The notes below the pieces were generated by a model. The model saw only the letters and a program-made list of their open reading frames with translations, made no database searches and was not told the DNA's origin. Source: Podarcis cretensis (lineage: Eukaryota). From it: a DNA stretch of 64,000 bases. The stretch covers positions 43,524,001 to 43,588,000 of the forward strand of contig OX638158.1 of assembly GCA_951804945.1 (NCBI GenBank), written 5' to 3'. The first letter of the stretch is position 1, and the number at the start of each line of letters is the position of its first letter. Positions 23,647 to 63,266 of the stretch are shown here, in pieces. Both the position numbers and the translations under genes were made by a program.

Positions 23647-26600
23647 CACACACACACGTACATTTTAAACACCAGAAATATCTGGATGACCTCAGCAGAT
23701 TTCCCAGTAGCAAAGCATTTAGTTTGCTTAGACTACAATTACCTCAGATGTTCTTAAATGGAAGAACTTGGCGAAACAGAGACAGAAACAATTTTCAGCA
23801 ACTCCCTGTCTCCTCTGCAGCCCCCTGTGCCCCTCTGTGGGAGGCTGGGTGGGGGACACTTTCCTGTAATTGCTTTGATTAGAAAACACTTTGAGTGTGT
23901 ACACAGAAAATCTAAACAGCATCTTCAACCATTAACAAGAATGGACTGTTTTGCATTTTACCTTTTTCTTTTGTTCTTCTGTGGCTTTAATTATTCCTGG
24001 GTCTGATTTCCAAGATTTTCCAAAATTGTAGAAAAGTGCAACACTATTAGCAAGAAATGGAAGGTGGATGAACACAAAATTTAGATGTATTAAATGTTAA
24101 GGAATTTGAATATGTTTTCTTTCCTGTTAAAAATAATTATTATCTGAAAATAATAGAATTCTGCAATACACTTTTTTGTTGCTAATTCATTTCACAGGGA
24201 ATGTACTAGATGCATGTCAAGACATCTAATAATTCTTTTTTGTCATTTTATGCTGTTCAAGTGTATCATCTTGCCTTAATTTGTTTGATAGCTCCAAAAT
24301 TAGCAGTGCAACATTATAAATGTTCTCTCAAAAGTCTGAATTCAGTTGAGCTTATTTCCTAGTCAATGTGTTTAGGATTGCAGCTTTTGTATCTCTTTAA
24401 ATCATTTTCTGACAGAAAACATTGAAATGGTCAACGATTTTTTAATATATATTTTTACTGTTTATGCCTATTAATGGCCTGAAATTCCAGCTATATCACA
24501 AAAAAAAACCTCTATAATAAAAGAGATTACCGTATTTTTCGTCCCATAGGACGCTCCGTCCCATAGAACGCACCTAATTTTTTTTTGGGGGGGGGAATTC
24601 CCCCCCCAAAACCAGGTCGGGGAACAGCGGGATGGCGGCGCTGCGCCTCCCCGCTGTCCCCCGAGCTTGTGGGGCTGGCCGATGTCTGCCCGAAGCGTGG
24701 GGCGCTCTGCTTCAGCGCGCCCGCGCTCCGTGCAGCAGGCTGCTATCCGCAGCCTAGGGAGCCCTGCAGGAACTGCCGCAGGGCTCCTCAGGCTGCGGAT
24801 GTCTGCCCGGCGCGCGGGGTGCTCTGCTTCAGGGCATCTTGCGTGCCGGGCAGCAGGCTGCTATCCGCAGCGTGGGGAGCCCTACAGGAACTCCCGTGGG
24901 CTCCCCAGGCTTGCTAATAGCTTCCTGAAGCCTGGAGAACGAGAGGGGTCGGTGCGCACCGACCCCTCTCACTCTCCAAGCTTCAGCGAAAGCCTGTATT
25001 TGCCCCATAGGACGCACACAGATTTCCCCTTCATTTTTGGAGGGGAAAAAGTGCGTCCTATAGGGCGAAAAATACGGTATACAGGGAATGATGAATACAA
25101 TAATAATCTCTTTTGGGGGGATGGATTACATTTATATTAAAGATTCCTCCTCTTCTTCCCCTCTTAATCATTTACTGAAAAAAGGAACATGTGCTTTATC
25201 TGGAAATGAAAGTGTTGGAATAAATTGCAGACCCTTGGATTTTTTCTCCAGTATTTGAATTCCAGCTGCTTCACAATTTGAAATTAACTTTGTTAATACC
25301 TAGGTATCTGTATTTTCTTCACATTAATTTGCACATAGTATAAGCTAATTATATTTTAACAAATATTTTCTACCATGAAATTACAAATGGCCCCAGTAGC
25401 ACCTTTTCTGCTTCAGTGCCTCAGCATTTATACACTCCATTGCCAAGGGAATGGCAAGCTCTAAACACACACACTTAAAACCTATTTAGCTAACATCACA
25501 AATTTCAGTGGTAACCCATCAGTTTCAAGTACAAATATGACACGCTGGAAAATATTTTTAGCATATGTAAAGGGGTTCCATAGCACTGAAATCAATGTGG
25601 GAAAGAGTTCCCTGAAGTTAGAAAGCCTGAAAACCACTGTGTTGCTGCAGATCATCAACAAAATACTGACATCAAGAAAACAATGAGCCTTAAACTTACA
25701 CGCCTGGTTTGCACATTAGTGCTAATACACAGCATGTTGGTGTAACATGGCTGCAACTGTGGGTGCTTCATTCCCTGCTTGTTCCTGCCATGCTGCTAAG
25801 CGTTATGTCCAGATCCAGACTCATGGTCTGTTTCTGAGAGCAATCCCCGCAGAGGCTTGGGAGGGAAGCTGCGCGCCCGCCAACCATATGGTTGGTGGGG
25901 TGCAGCTGGCGGGCGTACAGTGAAAGGGGAGGCCGCTGGCAAAGCCACACAGCTCTTCCACTCGCTGGGGAGTGCCCTGAGAGGCCAGTGCCCTGGCGCA
26001 ACGCACCACTAAGCCCTATAGGAAAGATGGCTCTGAAGAAAACACACTATGTCAAACCATGTGCTTGTTTCTCAGCAGCCTGGTAGGAGGGAGGGGGAGC
26101 ACACTGCATGTACACATTATAAACCATACTTGATTTAATGTGATATGCAAAGAAAACCATGGTCACCATTTAGCCAAGACATAAATTTCAATTGGACTTC
26201 ATCACCTTTGTGTAGAAATATGTCATTATAACAGGGCTTTTGAATCTAAGTCTCAAGTTAAAGTTCCCAAAAGAATATGGTACAGTCGTACCTTGGAAGT
26301 CGAAAGGAATCCGTTCTGGAAGTCCGTTTGACTTCCAAAACGTTTGGAAACCAAAGTGTGGCTTCTGATTGGCTGCAGGAAGCTGCTGCAGCCAACTGGA
26401 AGCTACAGAAGTCCAGTCAGACATTCGGCTTCCAAAACAGTTCGCAAACCAGAAGAGTCACTTCCAGGTTTGCAGCGTTCGGGAGCCAAAACGTTCAAGA
26501 ACTAAGCTGTTTGAAAACCAAGGTACGACTACATGTTTTCCTAAGTACCAGCATTCATTTCAATTACTAAACCACATGTCTAGACCACTAAAAAGAAGCT

Positions 26601-56600: not shown

Positions 56601-59600
56601 AGGTGCTTCGCAAAACGAATTTCCTATGGGCTTGCTTCGCAAGACGAAAATGTCTTGCGAGTTCCTGCGGGTTTTTTTCCCTTCCCCCCCCCTTTTTCTA
56701 AGCCGCTAAGCCGCTTATCCGCTAAGCGCCGCTAATAGTGCTAATCCGCTAAGCCGTCAATGGGCTTGCTTCGCAAGACGAAAAAACCGCTAGACGCAGA
56801 GAATCGCGGAACGGATTCTTTTCGTCTTGCGAAGCACCACTGTATTCGGTTTTCTGGGCTCACTGGCGTAGCACTTCCACATCACATCCTGAGCCAGGCC
56901 ACATGTAATCATGCAGTTCACCATCTTTAAAGTTCCTGGGTTCTCTAGGGATTCCAACACAGTTGTCATGACTGGGTGGGTCGTCTTTCCAAAGAAGAAG
57001 CTGGCCCACCAGTGCCCAGGGTCAGACTTGGGGAGACCTGTATGGTGAGGGATGTCTTCCCCATAATCAGCACTTCCACAGGAGCTGTGGCTAGAAGTGG
57101 AACCCACATGCTTTTGGCAGCAGTCGTGGCTTGCCACAAGGGAGCCGCTTGGCGGTACTGCTGCCATGTTTCTTTGTTCTTGTGCAAGTTGTAACCCCTT
57201 TAAGACTTAACGCTGCACTCAGCAAAATCCTAGCTGTTTCAGACCACAGGTGACCTGGCTCGGGGGTGGGGGCTAGGTGATGGAGCCCATTTGCAAAGGA
57301 GATACTAGGAGTACACTCCACGCACACCCAAAAACATCGAGGCATGTATGGATTTCAGAGGCCCTCTTTGTTGTGCCACAATCTTGTTTAGTGACAACTA
57401 GTGTCTGCCATAGCTGCCCACTTCCTATTGAATTACTTCTTTATGGAGCTCCAATAAGCACAAAATGCTAAGGAAATTTCTGTATTTCTTAAAAATACAC
57501 CTGCACACTCAAAGCTCTTGTAATGTTTAATGTCAAGAATTAATTAATGGTGTGGGACTTTTACATTCTAGCTAATCACCATTCATCCACAGCACAGAGT
57601 TAGGGCTTCCATGTTACTGACCCAAAAGTAAGAGTCACTCAATTTTGCACTTTTTAGGGTGTTTAAAAATGTCCAGACTTACGTTTTAATTCTGCATTTA
57701 AGAATGTGTGCATTTATTTTGTGTCAGTTACTACTGAAACAAGTGCTACTACAGTCAATCTTGATCACGTACCACCTGGAGGTTAATAAAAAGTGTTATG
57801 CTGATATCAGCTGAGACCCACTCCTTCCATTAAAACCTCTACTCACAGTTCCATTTACTTGGCAGTCTCACACCATCTCTGTGTCTACAGACCATATGCT
57901 CCATCTCTATAATTACCTCTGAAGTTGTGAGACTGGAACAAAATATTCTTATCTGCCTCTGCCAGGTCTCATACCAGAAAAAGCAATGAAAGAGCCCTGC
58001 TGGATCAAATCAAACACCTAACCAGTCCAACACTTTGTTTTTACAGAGGCCAACTATGGGAAGCCTGCAAGCAAGACCCAAGTGGAGCAGTACTCTCCCC
58101 ACTTGTGATGCCCAGCAAATGGCATCAGGTACAGTGCCTCTGAGTGTAGAACACAGGTAGAACACAGCCATCATGACTAACAGTTACTAATAGATCAATC
58201 CACCATGAATTTGTCTAATCCTTTATTAAATCCATTAAAGTTAATGGCCATCACTTAATCTTTGGGGAGCAAGATCTAGAAGTAAACTATGTGCAGAGTG
58301 AAAAAGTATTTTCTTTTGCTTGTGCTGAATCTTTCAACATTCAACTTTTCTTGGGTGGCCACCAGTAGCATCTCTCCTACATAAAGAAAATACCTTAAGA
58401 AACCATGTTTTGGAAAAAGCTGAGGATATACACTTTAACTTACAGCAGCAATCTAGAGAATGTTAAACATCTCATGAACTCAATCACACTCTTGATCAGT
58501 CTCAACTTAGAACCACACACACGTAGAACCACACACTATAAGAAGACTACTTAAATCAACCATCAGTCTTCCAGTTCTGACATCTCTGTTAAGTTTTAGT
58601 TTGATCTAAAAAAGACCAGGAATTGAGAATGTTTAGATCCAGCCCCTCCTCTCTCCACCTGCTTCCCCATTATCTTAGTTTCCCTTTAACATTTCCTTAT
58701 TACCGTATTTTTCGCCCTATAGGACGCACTTTTTCTCCTCCAAAAATGAAGGGGAAATGTGTGTGCATCCTATGGGGCGAATGCAGGCTTTCGCTGAAGC
58801 CTGGAGAGCGAGAGGGGTCGGTGTGCACCGACCCCTCTCGCTCTCCAGGCTTCAGCGAAAGCCTTGGGAGCCCGGCGGGAGTTCTCACGGAAGGCGCCCA
58901 CTCCGTCTCCGGCAGGGATGCGGCGCGCGGGGAGCCTCCACCTGGGTGGGAGACGAGGCGATGCCGGGGCGTCCGGCCGAGCTCCGCAGCGCCTGCAGCC
59001 GCACTTGCTGCTGCTTCTGGAAAGGCGAGCTGCTCCTGACGCGGGGAGAACCAGGGACATGCAGCCGATACCCCTCCGGCCCCGGCCAGGTGAGCTGGCG
59101 GGCAGGTTGGGCGGCCAAGCAGGGTTGGTTGGGGGAGCAGGCGGGCGCGCAGCACGGGGCCACAGAGCCACCCAACGGGAGAGCCGAGCGCAGCCCCTGC
59201 AGGAGGACAGCGGGGCGCTGCCCATGGAGAGCCCCGCCGCGCTGGAGGACGCACTCCTCGGCTGCCCACCCACCTTGGGGCTGCCTGGCATTGTGCGTCC
59301 GGCTGCCCCTCTTTCCTTGGAAGCGGTGCAGGCTGCGAGGGAAGGGGGGATCCCAGATCTCTGCCCGGTACAGCGGGTCTGAGTCCCGGACGCAGCTGAG
59401 CTGGGGTGGACGGCGGGAGGCACCGGGGAGAGAAGCCGGAGAGGTTCAGGAGGGACCTCCCAACTTATTTTCGGAGCGCTGCGGAGGGAGGGGGACTTGC
59501 GCGCTTAAGGCGGCAAAGAGCTGCTTGCAAAACAACCGCTGATCTTTCGGCACTTCGCATTAGCAGAGGGGGTGGCGAGGGGAAGCATCTGCCCAAGGAG

Positions 59601-62600
59601 CAGCGGGAGGGGAGGCATTGCTTGTTCTTGTTTCGTTAGCCTTCCGGATTTGCCTGCTTCTGGTGGCGCTTTGGGGCTGATCACCATGCGCCTGCTTATC
59701 ACTTGTGGACTTGTTGCTTGGAGACGCCTAGCTCCAGCTGTGCTAACTTTCTCCGCTGAAGTGCAGTGCGCCTGAGTCAGCTTCGAAGCAGACGAAGAGT
59801 TCTGCTTGCCGCCTGTGACTCGCCCGGATGGCTCATTCACGGGCAAGTCACTGCAAAAAAACCAGGGATATGCCTTCTTAGCCCCGCCGGAGTACTTTTT
59901 AAAAGGCAGCGAGCCTTAAGGCTAGAGAGGTAAAGGAAGCAACACTCCAAGTGAACAACTGCAGACTTCTTTGCCTTTGCAAATGCATCATTTGTCAGAC
60001 TTCTGAAATGTCAGTTTATGCATCATTGCTTTGGCTATGGTGCGGACCCCTCCCAAAGTTTTTATAAATAACACAAAACAATTTAAAGTGCTTGGTTTTC
60101 AGGGTCCTGCCTCATTTTCAGGGACTGTCTCTTAATTCTGGACATCACTGCCCCCAAAGGAGCACGATGCCATATTCCCAACTGCTAGGCACTGTAGAGA
60201 CTTCTTAGGATGGAAACCTTATCAGTGCTGGTTGTGTATAAACTTTCTGAGCAGTCAATTATTTGTAGCAAAGCTGTGCTTTGTGGTTGCTTTTTTTAAA
60301 AGGGGGTTAAACTTAAGACTCTGTAAAAGGAAGGTTTTACCTGTGGGTTCTGAGATCTTTTTTCTGAATTTTATTTTCTTTATTTCCCCCCAAAAAACCT
60401 AGGTGTGCCCTATGGGCGTCCTATAGGGCGAAAAATACGGTATATATCCATCATTAAAATGATTTAGCTATCATTAAAAGGTTAATCAACATTCAATGGC
60501 CGGATAGCCTTTAAATGTATCATATGTGGCTTTCTCAACAAAAGACTACTTGTAGTGGAGCATGAAAATAACTACACAGAAAAAGTATTATGGCTTTCAT
60601 TAATTGTAGATACTTAACTACACCATGCATGGACATCGCTGAGAACACAGGCCCAGATACAACAATCAAAAATTGTCTTCTTTTTCCCCTTTTCTTTTTT
60701 GACATTCAGTGAATGTGTTCGGGGATCATGCCAAACCACAGTTTAGCATCATGGGAATGAGCTGCAGTGAGCCTTAGACTCAAGGCAGCAATGCTTCTGA
60801 ATATCAGCTGCTGGAAACCACAAAAGGGGAGAGTGCTCTTGTACTTGAATCCTGATTGCAGGTTTCCCACAGGCAGTCACTATGAGAGCAGGATACTGAA
60901 CTAGATGGGCCATTGGCCTGATCCAGCAGAGTTTTCTTATGTGCTTACATGTTCCATCATTCCCATTCTTCCTCTGGTATAGCTGCATCAAGTTTGGAAG
61001 CTTTTGCTTCTTTTTTTATTTAACCACAGTTTGTTTAGTGTACAAACTAACGAACAGTGATTAATGTTAACTCTTTGTCTGAAACAAGCTAATATCCAAC
61101 ACAGTTCATTGGCTCATTTTCATGTTGGCACTCTCACTGGCAAAGTTCCCAACTAGTGGGTTGTGCTGATGTTTCTAGAGGTGCTGGGCACATATCTGCT
61201 ATTTATATGCCATTTTTAAATTTTCTGATTGTGTTTCACCCACCTGCTTCCAGGGCTGACTATACACAGACTATGGTGGTAATTACACTAGCACAGTGGT
61301 GATCTCCCCAGCTCCCCTCCCCAAATGGAGTATAGGATTGCTATGTAAAATACTCCCAAGTGCATGGCATTTTCTTAGCCATGTCTTGCTACTATTTTAC
61401 TTGTTTTTACCATAAATATTTTATTGTATACCTTCAATTACATTATTTTCACTGATGAAATCAAATGGAAGGAAAAGGATTATCAAATGTAAGATACAGT
61501 CTTAGACAAATCCTCAATAAGTTGACTAAGAAAAATACCATCTGCTCAGTAAAAAAACAAGCCCAAACACCCCCCGATATTTGGCACACCTTTTAATGAC
61601 ATAATATTTCATAATTAATCAAAGCATGTCCTTTATTATACTATGCAGGAAGCAGCTATAAAACTACAAAAATGGCCTTCAATACAATTTCTTGTAGGGC
61701 TGCAGCCCTATAAAATTAGATTTTGAGTACTAGAATATTGACAAGTTAACGTTTCAAAATAAGATGACTACCAAAGGATTTTCTTGGCACAGGTTATCTC
61801 TGCTACTGCTACCACCAGCATCTAAACAGCAAAATATAATATGCCCCTGCTATACTGGACGACTTGTCTTTCTGGGGCAGGAAAGGCTGGATTTTTAAAA
61901 TGCAGAAGACTTATAAATCCTCAAAAGAAAGGTAAGCACAATGGACAGAGAAACAGTTGGAATTTGTTTTTTTGTTTTTAAGTGCACTGGCATTTTTAAG
62001 TACACTGGCAGGTAACTGAGAAACAACTAAGGCACCTATTAATAACATAGAGCACTATTCATTAGGTGCCCATAACACCACTGCAGTCATCTTCCTGATA
62101 GTCACGCTTATGAGAGTAGAAAAGAAATTGGTGTTTCCCAGCAACTGATTGCCTGGTTTGTAACTAATGCAACTTCCAGAAACTCTGTTAATCTGTCAGA
62201 GAGAAAAACATAACTTTGCAACACCTTTAAAAACTAACAAATATACAGGGTGAGTCCTTTAAAAGAGGCACCGTGCATACAGAGTACACATGTTCCATGG
62301 GGCCTCTTTTAAAACACTCACCATGTATTATGTCCTAAAAACCAACAAATACATTACGCCTGTACAAAATTAACAAAAGTTTATCCCATAATAAATATGC
62401 CCATCTTCAGAGAGCTACCACACTCTTTGTTGTTCCCCTAATTTATAGGATCAAGCTGTAAGCCACAATAGGCCCCAAACTCTACAGCGAAAAGGGGGAA
62501 AGGAGATCAATGACCTCACAAGACCAGAAAGTGTATCGCTCTTGTTTAAATCTAGCTCTGAATCCTTTTACCCAAACCAGAAAGCTGCCCTGTGGGCCCC

Positions 62601-63266
62601 TAAATTGTGCAATTGCGCGCTTGGGCCATTAGCAGGTTCAAAAGCCTTTTTCAGCGTTTAACTAGAGGAGTGTGATACTTCTCTCTTGAGGTTTTTGAGT
62701 CTCAGGACCCCCCCCTTTTTTTTCCCCTTCTTTTTTCAAGTAAACTCAAGGCACCTGCAGTTCCTCGCTCCTTTATGTGTGATTAAGGGAAAGCGGTTCA
62801 TTGGTTACGGATTGTCCAGGAGGACACCCCCTCCCCATCCAGTTTCCAGCCCAAATATCCTTGTGAGGGAATCAGAATTAACGAGGGGGACAGGGCAAAG
62901 CCTCGTCCTCTACCTACCCACCCCTGCGGGCACTGGGGAGCTTGCCTGCCCAGCCTGTTCCCTTCCCCTCCCCGCAGCCCAGCCAAGGCGCACCCGCCGC
63001 CGCCGCTTCTCCCTCCCAGACAATCCTGCCCGCGCCTCCGGGCCAACCTCCGCCCCCGCCTGGGAAAGGAGTGCCAAGAGGAGGGCGGAGGCCTCCGCTG
63101 CCGCCGCCACTTTCCGCTCCTCCTCCTCCCTCTCGCCGCCACCCAGCTTCTTCTCCAGGCTGACGGGGTTGCGAGGGAGGCCTTAAAGCCAGCAGGGCCT
63201 CACCTCAGGGTGCAGGATAGGGACGCAGCCCGCTTCTTTCTCGTACTCCTCCAGAGGCGCCGCCAT
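14862..63266 (-). CDS. ZDHHC17: Palmitoyltransferase ZDHHC17 (HIP14), 622 aa, 17 coding exons
   Basis: Exons sum to 1869 nt; N-terminal ankyrin repeats, TM helices, DHHC-CRD ([15 protein letters not shown]), TTNE motif, C-terminus ...GSGYQLV*. Confidence 0.97.
15528..15719. mobile_element. hAT-type MITE
   Basis: 8-bp TSD ccctaaaa; TIR cagctttccaaac...gtttggaaagctctg. Confidence 0.75.
16793..16887 (-). CDS. ZDHHC17: ZDHHC17 exon 16
   Basis: [31 protein letters not shown]; AG/GT. Confidence 0.95.
18660..18817 (-). CDS. ZDHHC17: ZDHHC17 exon 15
   Basis: [52 protein letters not shown]; AG/GT. Confidence 0.95.
19066..19149 (-). CDS. ZDHHC17: ZDHHC17 exon 14
   Basis: [27 protein letters not shown]; AG/GT. 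Confidence 0.95.
20052..20145 (-). CDS. ZDHHC17: ZDHHC17 exon 13 (DHHC motif)
   Basis: [31 protein letters not shown]; AG/GT. Confidence 0.97.
21996..22058 (-). CDS. ZDHHC17: ZDHHC17 exon 12
   Basis: [21 protein letters not shown]; AG/GT. Confidence 0.93.
22255..22292 (-). ncRNA. Minimal hammerhead ribozyme motif in Penelope pLTR (sense in ZDHHC17 pre-mRNA)
   Basis: GUAU-CUGAAGA-A-GUGUGcaugCACAC-GAAA-GC-UC-AUAC: CUGANGA/GAAA core, stem II, 4-bp stem I, palindromic AGCU in place of stem III. Confidence 0.65.
22841..22878 (+). ncRNA. Second copy of the hammerhead motif (inverted pLTR)
   Basis: gtatctgaagaagtgtgcatgcacacgaaagctcatac. Confidence 0.65.
23604..23642. repeat. (TG)n microsatellite
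   Basis: Direct reading. Confidence 0.95.
23962..24086 (-). CDS. ZDHHC17: ZDHHC17 exon 11 (preceded by AC acceptor)
   Basis: [41 protein letters not shown]; upstream TTCCTTAAC...TAC|. Confidence 0.94.
24530..25077. mobile_element. Tc1/mariner (Tc2-like ends) MITE, GC-rich interior
   Basis: TA TSD; TIR ccgtatttttcg...cgaaaaatacgg; same termini as 58703-60440 in opposite orientation; internal ~95-bp tandem duplication and hairpin. Confidence 0.88.
26283..26531. mobile_element. Tigger-like MITE (family of 1889-2140, inverted)
   Basis: TIR cagtcgtaccttgg...ccaaggtacgact; interior matches the reverse complement of 1889-2140. Confidence 0.82.
28344..28444 (-). CDS. ZDHHC17: ZDHHC17 exon 10 (followed by AT donor)
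   Basis: [33 protein letters not shown]|ATATCCTT. Confidence 0.94.
30023..30165 (-). CDS. ZDHHC17: ZDHHC17 exon 9
   Basis: [47 protein letters not shown]; AG/GT. Confidence 0.95.
30525..30650 (-). CDS. ZDHHC17: ZDHHC17 exon 8
   Basis: [42 protein letters not shown]; AG/GT. Confidence 0.95.
32964..33043. mobile_element. 80-bp mariner-type mini-MITE
   Basis: TA TSD; TIR cagggtgagtc...gactcaccctg; second copy at 62246-62325. Confidence 0.85.
33044..33100. repeat. (TAGA)n microsatellite
   Basis: Direct reading; begins at the MITE TA TSD. Confidence 0.9.
35581..35935 (+). mobile_element. Sauria SINE (full length)
   Basis: tRNA-like head gggacgcgggtggcgctgtgggttaaacc...ggttcgaatcc (A/B boxes), ccttta-repeat tail, TSD tatgccactcta/tatgtcactcta. 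Confidence 0.88.
36145..36293 (+). mobile_element. hAT transposase remnant (BED zinc finger)
   Basis: [25 protein letters not shown]...[12 protein letters not shown] follows the zf-BED pattern W.YF...A.C..C...S.....L...H. Confidence 0.6.
37771..38532. mobile_element. Probable hAT (Blackjack/Tip100-like) non-autonomous element with GC-rich interior
   Basis: Inverted ends taggcctgctgtat...atatggcaagccta; no clean TSD. Confidence 0.45.
39838..40000 (-). CDS. ZDHHC17: ZDHHC17 exon 7
   Basis: [54 protein letters not shown]; AG/GT. Confidence 0.95.
41462..41526 (-). CDS. ZDHHC17: ZDHHC17 exon 6
   Basis: [21 protein letters not shown]; AG/GT. Confidence 0.95.
42400..42900 (+). mobile_element. L2-clade LINE RT fragment
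   Basis: [21 protein letters not shown] and [43 protein letters not shown] (RT N-terminal motifs, frameshifted). Confidence 0.8.
43620..43814. mobile_element. Partial Tigger-like MITE
   Basis: Ends ccaaggtgctactg+TA; internal cacttccgggtttgc motif shared with the 1889/26283 family. Confidence 0.55.
44157..44301 (-). CDS. ZDHHC17: ZDHHC17 exon 5
   Basis: [48 protein letters not shown]; AG/GT. Confidence 0.95.
44640..44880. mobile_element. Palindromic MITE-like repeat
   Basis: Long imperfect inverted repeat (ttataccactttaacagtcatg...catgactgcgaaagtggtataa). Confidence 0.55.
45480..45650 (-). mobile_element. CR1-like LINE fragment
   Basis: Reverse strand resembles CR1 ORF2 C-terminal region (gagctggaaaagatgcagcca...aaaatgatcaaggggctggag). 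Confidence 0.55.
45715..45792 (-). CDS. ZDHHC17: ZDHHC17 exon 4
   Basis: [25 protein letters not shown]; AG/GT. Confidence 0.95.
47100..47400 (-). mobile_element. L2-clade LINE fragment
   Basis: [14 protein letters not shown] and [28 protein letters not shown] motifs. Confidence 0.75.
47555..47677 (-). CDS. ZDHHC17: ZDHHC17 exon 3
   Basis: [40 protein letters not shown]; AG/GT. Confidence 0.95.
48320..48382. repeat. (TTTTC)n/(TTTC)n microsatellite
   Basis: Direct reading. Confidence 0.9.
48499..48728. mobile_element. Tigger-like MITE
   Basis: TA TSD; TIR cagtggtacctcgggtta...taacccgaggtaccactg. Confidence 0.9.
50130..50233 (-). CDS. ZDHHC17: ZDHHC17 exon 2
   Basis: [34 protein letters not shown]; AG/GT. 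Confidence 0.95.
52093..52228. mobile_element. hAT-type MITE
   Basis: Perfect 8-bp TSD cgttaaga; TIR caggctt...aagcctg. Confidence 0.85.
52649..53440 (+). mobile_element. Degenerate Squam3-like tRNA SINE split by an L1 insertion
   Basis: Head ...cagtggccaatcacatgctttgc...caggtttaatccctggc and tail gatggatcagtggtctgacttggtataaggcagcttc flank the L1. Confidence 0.6.
52743..53370 (+). mobile_element. 5'-truncated L1-clade LINE 3' end
   Basis: 18-bp TSD gtaaagttgggaaaatat; [38 protein letters not shown]2 C-terminal-like peptide; T-rich 3' UTR, aataaa and A tail. Confidence 0.85.
55520..56190 (+). mobile_element. L2-clade LINE fragment (host of the PPDPF retrocopy)
   Basis: [42 protein letters not shown]; L2-like sequence resumes after 57356. 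Confidence 0.8.
56191..57355 (-). pseudogene. PPDPF: Processed PPDPF retrocopy (ORF 57167-56790 open; original stop at 56511-56513)
   Basis: [15 protein letters not shown]...[11 protein letters not shown]...[18 protein letters not shown]...VMTTVLES...TCGLA matches PPDPF as I recall it; intronless; AATAAA at 56215-56220; poly(A) remnant ~56188-56198; TSD cagaggccttcttt (56177-56190) / cagaggccctcttt (57356-57369). Confidence 0.9.
56530..56842. mobile_element. Tigger-like MITE inserted in the PPDPF retrocopy
   Basis: TA TSD; TIR cagtggtgc...gcaccactg; same family as 11254-11573. Confidence 0.9.
57590..57871 (+). repeat. ~280-bp direct repeat, copy 1 (ZDHHC17 intron 1)
   Basis: Aligns by eye with 63685-63957, including an identical acccactccttccattaaaacctctactcacagttccatttacttggcagtctcac block. 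Confidence 0.85.
57985..58370 (-). mobile_element. CR1-like LINE 3' end
   Basis: aagagccctgctggatca...ccagtccaaca; reverse complement resembles 60780-60945. Confidence 0.6.
58703..60440. mobile_element. 1.74-kb non-autonomous Tc1/mariner (Tc2-like ends) element with captured GC-rich cargo
   Basis: TA TSD; TIR ccgtatttttcgccctataggacgc...gcgtcctatagggcgaaaaatacgg; subterminal regions shared with 24530-25077; no transposase ORF. Confidence 0.85.
60780..60945 (+). mobile_element. CR1-like 3' terminus
   Basis: gatactgaactagatgggccattggcctgatccagcagagttttcttatgt terminal motif. Confidence 0.6.
62246..62325. mobile_element. 80-bp mariner-type mini-MITE (inverted copy of 32964-33043)
   Basis: TA TSD, cagggtgagt TIR, same interior reversed. 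Confidence 0.8.
63204..63266 (-). CDS. ZDHHC17: ZDHHC17 exon 1 (coding part)
   Basis: aagATGG Kozak context; [21 protein letters not shown]|gtgagg. Confidence 0.93.

What the first reader, a model, noticed from the sequence alone, without database searches (positions are those of the whole stretch)
58703..60440. Pack-TIR candidate: mariner/Tc2-like element carrying ~1.5 kb of promoter/first-exon-like DNA
Seen: the TIRs and subterminal sequences match the 548-bp element at 24530-25077, but the interior (~58865-60330) is unrelated and CpG-rich. On the + strand it has gene-like signals: ATG 59059 followed by CAG|GTGAGC donor (59090), AP-1 TGAGTCA (59773-59779), GC box (59881), TTTTTAAAA (59896-59904), AG|GTAAAG donor (59930) and two TTTTCAG acceptors (60102, 60121). 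Inference: a non-autonomous DNA transposon captured the 5' end or CpG island of another gene and placed it antisense ~2.8 kb inside ZDHHC17. Retained CpGs suggest a young insertion or an unmethylated, active site. Two family members with different GC-rich interiors hint at a family that repeatedly captures sequence.
Basis: partly seen in the sequence, partly recalled or inferred. Interest (0 to 1): 0.7.

Follow-up and report, generated by a model that had tools for sequence, protein, structure and literature searches.

The report
Transposon carrying SULF2 first-exon piece
A small cut-and-paste DNA element in a lizard carries a 1.5-kb copy of the end of the first exon and the start of the first intron of the SULF2 gene and now sits at two other chromosomal sites, a kind of gene-fragment capture seldom reported as mobile copies in vertebrates, though these copies are likely decaying passengers.

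Summary
Capture confirmed. 58703-60440 is a TA-flanked element with perfect 25-nt TIRs. Its 1,475-nt interior has three hits in the genome: this copy, a second TIR-bound copy on another chromosome, and a TIR-free source at the 5' end of SULF2 on a third. An RNA contig shows that 59090|GT is the real SULF2 exon-1 donor. The cargo is the last 205 nt of non-coding exon 1 plus 1,270 nt of intron 1; the start site was not taken. A related species has a clean empty TA site here. An intact DD35D pogo (Passer-type) transposon has the same ends, so the family is not mariner proper. Two first-reader inferences fail: the copy is losing CpGs about 7-fold faster than other bases, and the 548-bp sister has an ordinary family interior, with no second capture shown among 189 sampled members. 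Verdict: a well-documented multicopy interchromosomal Pack-TIR, likely inert. The scan noted similar first-exon captures in other lizard genomes.

The parts
58701..58702 (.). Left TA target-site duplication
   Evidence: single TA at the empty site in run X7, contig 25
58703..58727 (+). Left TIR, 25 nt, perfect match to the right TIR
   Evidence: 2,322 exact ends of this motif in the genome
58703..58885 (+). Left arm of the non-autonomous pogo (Passer-type) element
   Evidence: 94% to member L012 over 1-182; 93% over 153 nt to the autonomous element L262
58785..58864 (.). Perfect 39-bp hairpin; its last 9 bp are an extension private to the SULF2-carrying lineage, ending about 21 nt before the capture junction
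   Evidence: 0 of 47 members with a readable hairpin arm show the extension; the signature has only 2 genome hits, both cargo copies
58886..59090 (+). Captured last 205 nt of SULF2 non-coding exon 1 (5' UTR)
   Evidence: alignment to the source; RNA contig on L003:1217-1704 continues into exon 2
59059..59061 (+). ATG of a 17-codon upstream ORF of the SULF2 5' UTR, not the coding start
   Evidence: the coding ATG lies in exon 2, 15,491 nt downstream at the source
59091..60360 (+). Captured first 1,270 nt of SULF2 intron 1, starting with the true donor GTGAGC
59773..59779 (+). AP-1-like TGAGTCA, made in the cargo lineage from source TGAGTCG by a CpG-type change
   Evidence: G>A at L003:2393 in copy-type contigs of organisms D and G, not in the source-type contig of organism H
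60361..60366 (+). 6-nt filler at the right junction, shared by both copies
   Evidence: the same junction appears as a loose end in run X14
60367..60440 (+). Right arm with right TIR (60416-60440); it carries two AATAAA on the minus (ZDHHC17-sense) strand at 60384 and 60375
60441..60442 (.). Right TA target-site duplication
63204..63266 (-). Coding part of host ZDHHC17 exon 1; the element lies in intron 1
   Evidence: gene name not database-tested
24530..25077 (-). Ordinary 548-bp member of the same family (internal repeats, no captured DNA)

Best explanation
This is a non-autonomous pogo (Passer-type) DNA transposon whose middle has been replaced by a DNA copy of the SULF2 exon 1/intron 1 boundary, likely by template switching during repair of a break inside the element, and which then moved to new TA sites, likely using the family's transposase, and is likely an inert passenger. 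Shown: the source locus, exon-intron content, two TIR-bound copies at unrelated sites, an empty site in a relative, an intact transposase gene with the same ends, and CpG decay. Inferred: the repair route (abortive gap repair after excision, or fork stalling at the hairpin), the enzyme used, methylation, and lack of function.
For: Three full-length hits only, confirmed by a 28-nt pattern at up to 3 mismatches. The C6 hit has no TIR and its CpG island runs on upstream; it splices to an exon whose best named protein hits are SULF2. The cargo keeps the intron, so it was copied as DNA. The C4 copy has the same junctions, both TIRs, TA on each side and different flanks. Run X7 contig 25 joins 58700 to 60441. 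Left junction in organism D and right junction in organism G show that the cargo element exists in lineages besides this one, including D, which lacks this insertion. [quoted passage not shown] Junction signs: an imperfect 2-4 nt overlap on the left, 6-nt filler on the right, and a private fold-back extension of the hairpin. The arms total 257 nt against a median member of about 500 nt, so a large part was lost; Tan et al. expect large gaps from excision repair. CpG decay: 18/228 against 13/1,205 here, 21/228 against 16/1,205 on C4; 72 and 68 of 112 source CpGs kept.
Against: No cargo-free parent with the same left-arm signature survives, so the size of the lost part and the place of capture are unknown; gap repair and FoSTeST cannot be told apart. 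The junction overlaps are short enough to be chance and were not tested against shuffles. The 61 differences shared by both copies are not CpG-biased (13/228 against 48/1,205, p=0.28); some indels are source-lineage changes, so the early history is unresolved. In organisms B and E only TIR sequence is shown at this site, not the cargo. E's flanks look no closer than D's (19/1,460 against 16/1,572, counted by hand), so the insertion may have been polymorphic. Methylation and inactivity are inferred from mutation pattern only.
Confidence: 0.85

Rival explanations
1. The capture is real and the moved piece works at its new site, as an intron-1 enhancer on ZDHHC17 or as an antisense exon spliced from the true SULF2 donor, or the right arm ends some ZDHHC17 transcripts early.
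For: The donor CAG|GTGAGC is intact in both copies. The site is 2.8 kb from the ZDHHC17 CpG island. An AP-1 motif was gained. Two AATAAA lie in host-sense orientation. Tan et al. found many Pack-TIRs transcribed with host genes.
Against: The start site was not captured. CpGs decay about 7-fold faster than other bases. The cargo is antisense to the host. The AATAAA-bearing arm is family sequence. Organism D lacks the insertion.
Confidence: 0.08
2. Transposition-independent gap filling in place: a resident element at one of the two sites broke and was patched with SULF2 DNA, and the other copy arose by duplication or conversion.
For: This is the commonest route for single-copy animal Pack-TIRs. 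The C4 site was not checked in relatives, so capture in place on C4 followed by one jump remains open.
Against: The two copies share no flank and each ends in its own TA. The window site is empty, not occupied by a cargo-free element, in organism D, which has the cargo junction elsewhere.
Confidence: 0.1
3. The interior is just a family or subfamily consensus with no host parent, or an assembly artefact.
For: Ordinary members have varied GC-rich interiors.
Against: A TIR-free source that is spliced into SULF2 mRNA; only 3 hits; junctions seen in independent runs.
Confidence: 0.01
4. This family captures host DNA habitually.
For: One proven capture; eight half-elements and one 151-nt stretch (L057) are unexplained; unchecked scan notes report first-exon captures by other lizard transposons.
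Against: No second capture shown in 189 sampled members; the extra DNA in five of six closed or closable cases was other repeats or a high-copy subfamily. This puts the rate below about 1.6% by the rule of three, though the sample is biased to intact left ends and to contig 1.
Confidence: 0.2

Closest known systems
Multicopy animal Pack-TIRs, e.g. Pack-hAT-N8_XT carrying 291 bp of the CAPSL 5' UTR in Xenopus tropicalis (Tan et al. 2021, PMC8277862; read: abstract, sections 7, 8, 9, 10, 14; 12 supplements term-searched)
   Same: 5' UTR-derived cargo between the two ends of one non-autonomous TIR element; source far from the copies; several copies, each with its own target duplication.
   Different: Pogo/Passer carrier, TA target; cargo 1,475 nt against a median of 224; exon-intron boundary included; squamate host (their one lizard had 0 Pack-TIRs among only 77 annotated DNA elements); a clean empty site in a close relative, which they could not show for their four reference-genome multicopy cases.
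Ssk-FB4 of Drosophila and the FoSTeST model (same paper, section 9)
   Same: Capture by template switching next to a structured, repetitive element end, then repeated transposition.
   Different: Ssk-FB4 took the upstream region and almost the whole gene, from 0.6 Mb away on the same arm, and is expressed; here only a non-coding 5' piece without the start site, and no expression shown.
Passer family of pogo transposons (Gao et al. 2020, PMC7386202; passages read)
   Same: The autonomous partner has DD35D, BrkDBD + HTH_Tnp_Tc5, and POGK-named best hits.
   Different: No tree was built; the paper's passages read do not describe cargo-carrying derivatives.
Rice Pack-MULEs (PMC5861414, search listing and abstract start only; their bias to GC-rich 5' gene ends is recalled)
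   Same: A GC-rich 5' gene fragment carried between TIRs.
   Different: About 3,000 elements in rice against one shown capture, in two copies, in this family.
Cargo-carrying hobo_AC (hAT) elements of Anolis (Novick et al. 2011, PMC3014272; passages read)
   Same: A lizard DNA transposon that incorporates foreign DNA and stays mobile.
   Different: The filler described there is often other transposable elements; here it is a host gene's first exon, and the carrier is pogo.

Membership tests
Pack-TIR (Tan et al. 2021 criteria) | Both ends belong to one TIR element and cover at least 10 bp of its termini | tested here: met
Pack-TIR (Tan et al. 2021 criteria) | Internal sequence 100-5,000 bp, 80-120% of the parent's length | tested here: met
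   1,475 nt against 1,481 nt at the source
Pack-TIR (Tan et al. 2021 criteria) | Unique parental copy at 90% identity or more | tested here: inconclusive
   One TIR-free parent; 89% with gaps, 93.4% over 1,433 ungapped columns: borderline for their BLAT cut-off
Pack-TIR (Tan et al. 2021 criteria) | Parent not flanked by a transposon within 100 bp (not a segmental duplication) | tested here: met
   No family sequence beside the source; nearest members about 25 and 61 kb away. The upstream flank is exon 1. Other repeat families were not screened with a library.
Pack-TIR (Tan et al. 2021 criteria) | Not an intronless retrocopy | tested here: met
   The cargo runs through the exon 1 donor into intron 1
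Multicopy Pack-TIR | Two or more copies, each with its own target duplication and unrelated flanks | tested here: met
   C10 and C4 copies; empty site in organism D
Passer (pogo superfamily) | DD35D catalytic triad in the autonomous partner | tested here: met
   D172, D279, D315; spacing 35
Passer (pogo superfamily) | BrkDBD + HTH_Tnp_Tc5 DNA-binding motifs and DDE_1 | tested here: met
   definition
Passer (pogo superfamily) | Placement in the Passer clade on a transposase tree | not tested
   Only similarity hits named POGK-like
mariner proper (DD34D) | DD34D transposase | tested here: not met
   The partner is DD35D; mariner definition
Transcribed or chimeric Pack-TIR | Copy-specific transcripts | not testable with these tools
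   No RNA holder of this species was listed

The most novel reading that the evidence does not exclude
Lizard cut-and-paste transposons of several superfamilies, this Passer family among them, preferentially pick up open first-exon CpG islands and scatter them, as rice Pack-MULEs do; the SULF2 piece in ZDHHC17 intron 1, filled in some close relatives and empty in another, is then a natural experiment in moving a vertebrate regulatory module and changes ZDHHC17 output.
Probability: 0.12. Interest if true: 0.72.

Novelty: new member of a known kind. Interest (0 to 1): 0.45.

Why it matters
Mobile, multicopy gene-fragment captures by TIR transposons were rare in the one broad animal survey (4 cases in 100 genomes, none in its lizard; PMC8277862). 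This case has every piece in hand: spliced source exon, two transposed copies, junctions shared across related species, an empty site, and an intact partner transposase. That makes the capture route and any effect on ZDHHC17 directly testable by comparing filled and empty alleles. On present evidence it has no function, and the family is not a frequent capturer, which limits its weight.

Tried and rejected
Expression of the copy: no RNA holder was listed for the window stretch; this is no evidence either way. Second donor at 59930: no spliced contig seen; one low-depth RNA-type contig (depth 7.85) reads through the matching source position unspliced, and 26 loose ends were not shown, so it is inconclusive. 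Contig depth in organism D is 50-69 on copy-type contigs against 14-16 on flanks and source-type contigs; this hints at 3-4 copies, but the tool states that depth is no copy number. A PDB search with a SULF2 exon found nothing. The top 30 of 119 DDE_1 hits had other TIRs; the partner came from 20 further hits; 69 hits were not examined. The family members inside SULF2 introns are not the parent: they lack the cargo lineage's left-arm signature. A direct genome-wide listing of long TIR pairs was not obtained, so the family survey is a sample: 189 elements, after dropping 7 duplicate loci (L008, L023, L142, L143, L203-L205). L051 looked unusual but is a high-copy subfamily (230 matches). L234 was a false pairing of two elements. 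Literature searches for a prior report (SULF2 in the supplements of PMC8277862) showed none; the library lacks most subscription papers and Repbase/Dfam entries.
Full report
Observation. The element spans 58703-60440 with perfect 25-nt TIRs and TA on both sides. Its ends match the 548-bp element at 24530-25077 and its interior matches nothing else in the window. It lies in intron 1 of a minus-strand ankyrin/DHHC gene, 2,764 nt from the end of exon 1. The host is a squamate, likely a wall lizard: the family's transposase is 94% identical to a Podarcis protein.

Source of the interior. A search of the own genome with 58865-60380 gave three full-length hits: this copy on C10, one on C4 (95%) and one on C6 (89%). 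A 28-nt pattern at up to 3 mismatches gave the same three. The C6 hit has no TIR, and its CpG island continues upstream. Coding exons of a sulfatase follow on the same strand; the best named hits of the first coding exon are SULF2. In run X17 (guessed RNA, organism H) a 2,250-nt contig lies on L003:1217-1704 and then continues with sequence found right behind an acceptor AG 15,491 nt downstream, in the exon holding the SULF2 start codon. So 59090|GTGAGC is the real donor of non-coding exon 1. The cargo is the last 205 nt of that exon and the first 1,270 nt of intron 1. The expressed exon starts at least 284 nt upstream of the captured part, so the main start site was not taken. ATG 59059 opens a 17-codon upstream ORF at the source.

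Mobility after capture. The C4 copy has the same two junctions, both TIRs, TA on each side and unrelated flanks; a 3.2-kb LINE-like insert splits its right arm. Laid on window 57900-61300, contig 25 of run X7 (organism D) joins 58700 directly to 60441, an empty site with one TA. In runs X5 and X10 (organisms B, E) the flank contigs run into TIR sequence on both sides. Organism D shows the left cargo junction and organism G the right one. The cargo element therefore exists in lineages besides this one, including one without this insertion. E's flanks look no closer to this genome than D's (19/1,460 against 16/1,572 differences, counted by hand); the numbers are small, but the insertion may have been polymorphic.

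The carrier. The TIR motif has 2,322 exact ends in the genome. Among 189 sampled members, 178 could be closed by script, with a median length of about 500 nt; 80 of the 83 closed in the first batch end in TA. Their interiors are GC-rich internal repeats, and the 548-bp sister is fully covered by other members. Of 119 DDE_1 hits I examined 50. L262 is a 2.1-kb element with the same ends (93% over 153 nt, 86% over 65 nt) and an open 425-aa frame. [quoted passage not shown] No tree was built.

How the capture likely happened (inferred). The cargo includes intron, so it was copied as DNA. The arms total 257 nt, about half a median member. The left junction has an imperfect 2-4 nt overlap and the right a 6-nt filler. 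The family's hairpin is extended into a perfect 39-bp stem ending about 21 nt before the left junction; 0 of 47 members show this, and the signature occurs only in the two cargo copies. These features fit template switching by a repair polymerase near the hairpin, during abortive repair of an excision gap or at a stalled fork (FoSTeST). No parent element survives, so the two routes cannot be separated, and the overlaps were not tested against chance.

Is it active? Against the source, changes private to this copy hit 18 of 228 CpG bases and 13 of 1,205 other bases (p=7e-8); on C4, 21 and 16. CpG o/e fell from 0.85 to 0.65 and 0.62. That is the pattern expected of germ-line methylated DNA (inference). 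Ordinary members are just as CpG-rich (0.73). The remaining CpGs therefore reflect origin and youth (non-CpG distance between copies 28/1,196; to the source 51/1,196). The AP-1 motif arose from TGAGTCG and the 60102 acceptor is private. The 61 differences shared by both copies are not CpG-biased (p=0.28); the 27-nt deletion is cargo-derived, whereas two other indels are source-lineage losses. No RNA of this species was available.

Does the family capture repeatedly? Not shown. Of six closed or closable members with extra DNA, five were explained by other repeats or a high-copy subfamily and one 151-nt stretch (L057) is unresolved. Eight half-elements had no matching right end within 6-12 kb. 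The sample favours intact left ends and contig 1.

Comparison. The element meets the Pack-TIR criteria of Tan et al. 2021, except for borderline identity to the parent, and belongs to their rare multicopy, distant-source class (4 cases in 100 genomes). Their lizard had none, but only 77 annotated DNA elements. My paper searches found no report of this element. Unchecked notes of this scan describe first-exon captures in other lizard genomes, by hAT elements where the class is named, and a cargo-carrying hAT element in this genome; these are leads, not support.

Verdict. A new, unusually well-documented member of a known kind; likely a passenger. Interest 0.45.

Noticed in passing
L262:1523-3618 (G000:C2, about 62,881,820-62,883,920): Intact-looking autonomous Passer-type element. 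Its transposase is 79-82% identical to proteins of a caecilian, a bichir, a frog and a tick, a patchy spread that suggests horizontal transfer. L261, L264 and L267 have about 93% identical transposase DNA but different TIRs.
   Followed up: partly
G000:C4:69358128-69363036 (L034, L002): The second cargo copy has lost the 62-nt hairpin between short repeats and carries a 3.2-kb LINE-like insert (RTE/BovB type by recall) between apparent 9-nt repeats in its right arm.
   Followed up: partly
L003:1576-1704 and L038:5732-5805: The SULF2 5' UTR holds four upstream ATGs; one 17-codon ORF spans the exon 1-2 junction and an 18-codon ORF overlaps the coding start out of frame.
   Followed up: no
L057:109-259 of the element (G000:C1, near 23,743,230): A 151-nt GC-rich stretch inside a family member with no match in the roughly 1 Mb held; not searched genome-wide.
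   Followed up: partly
L110-L139; cluster at G000:C2:117.9-119.2 Mb: Dozens of long open DDE_1 (Tigger/TIGD-like) frames share a conserved upstream motif, with a cluster on C2; possibly a second expanded pogo lineage or a domesticated gene array.
   Followed up: no
L094, L109/L199, L218: The same roughly 500-nt LTR-like repeat sits inside or beside several family members.
   Followed up: no
window 63293 and 63266, minus strand: An upstream ATG 28 nt before the likely ZDHHC17 start is out of frame with it (read); in my recollection the human gene has the two in frame.
   Followed up: no
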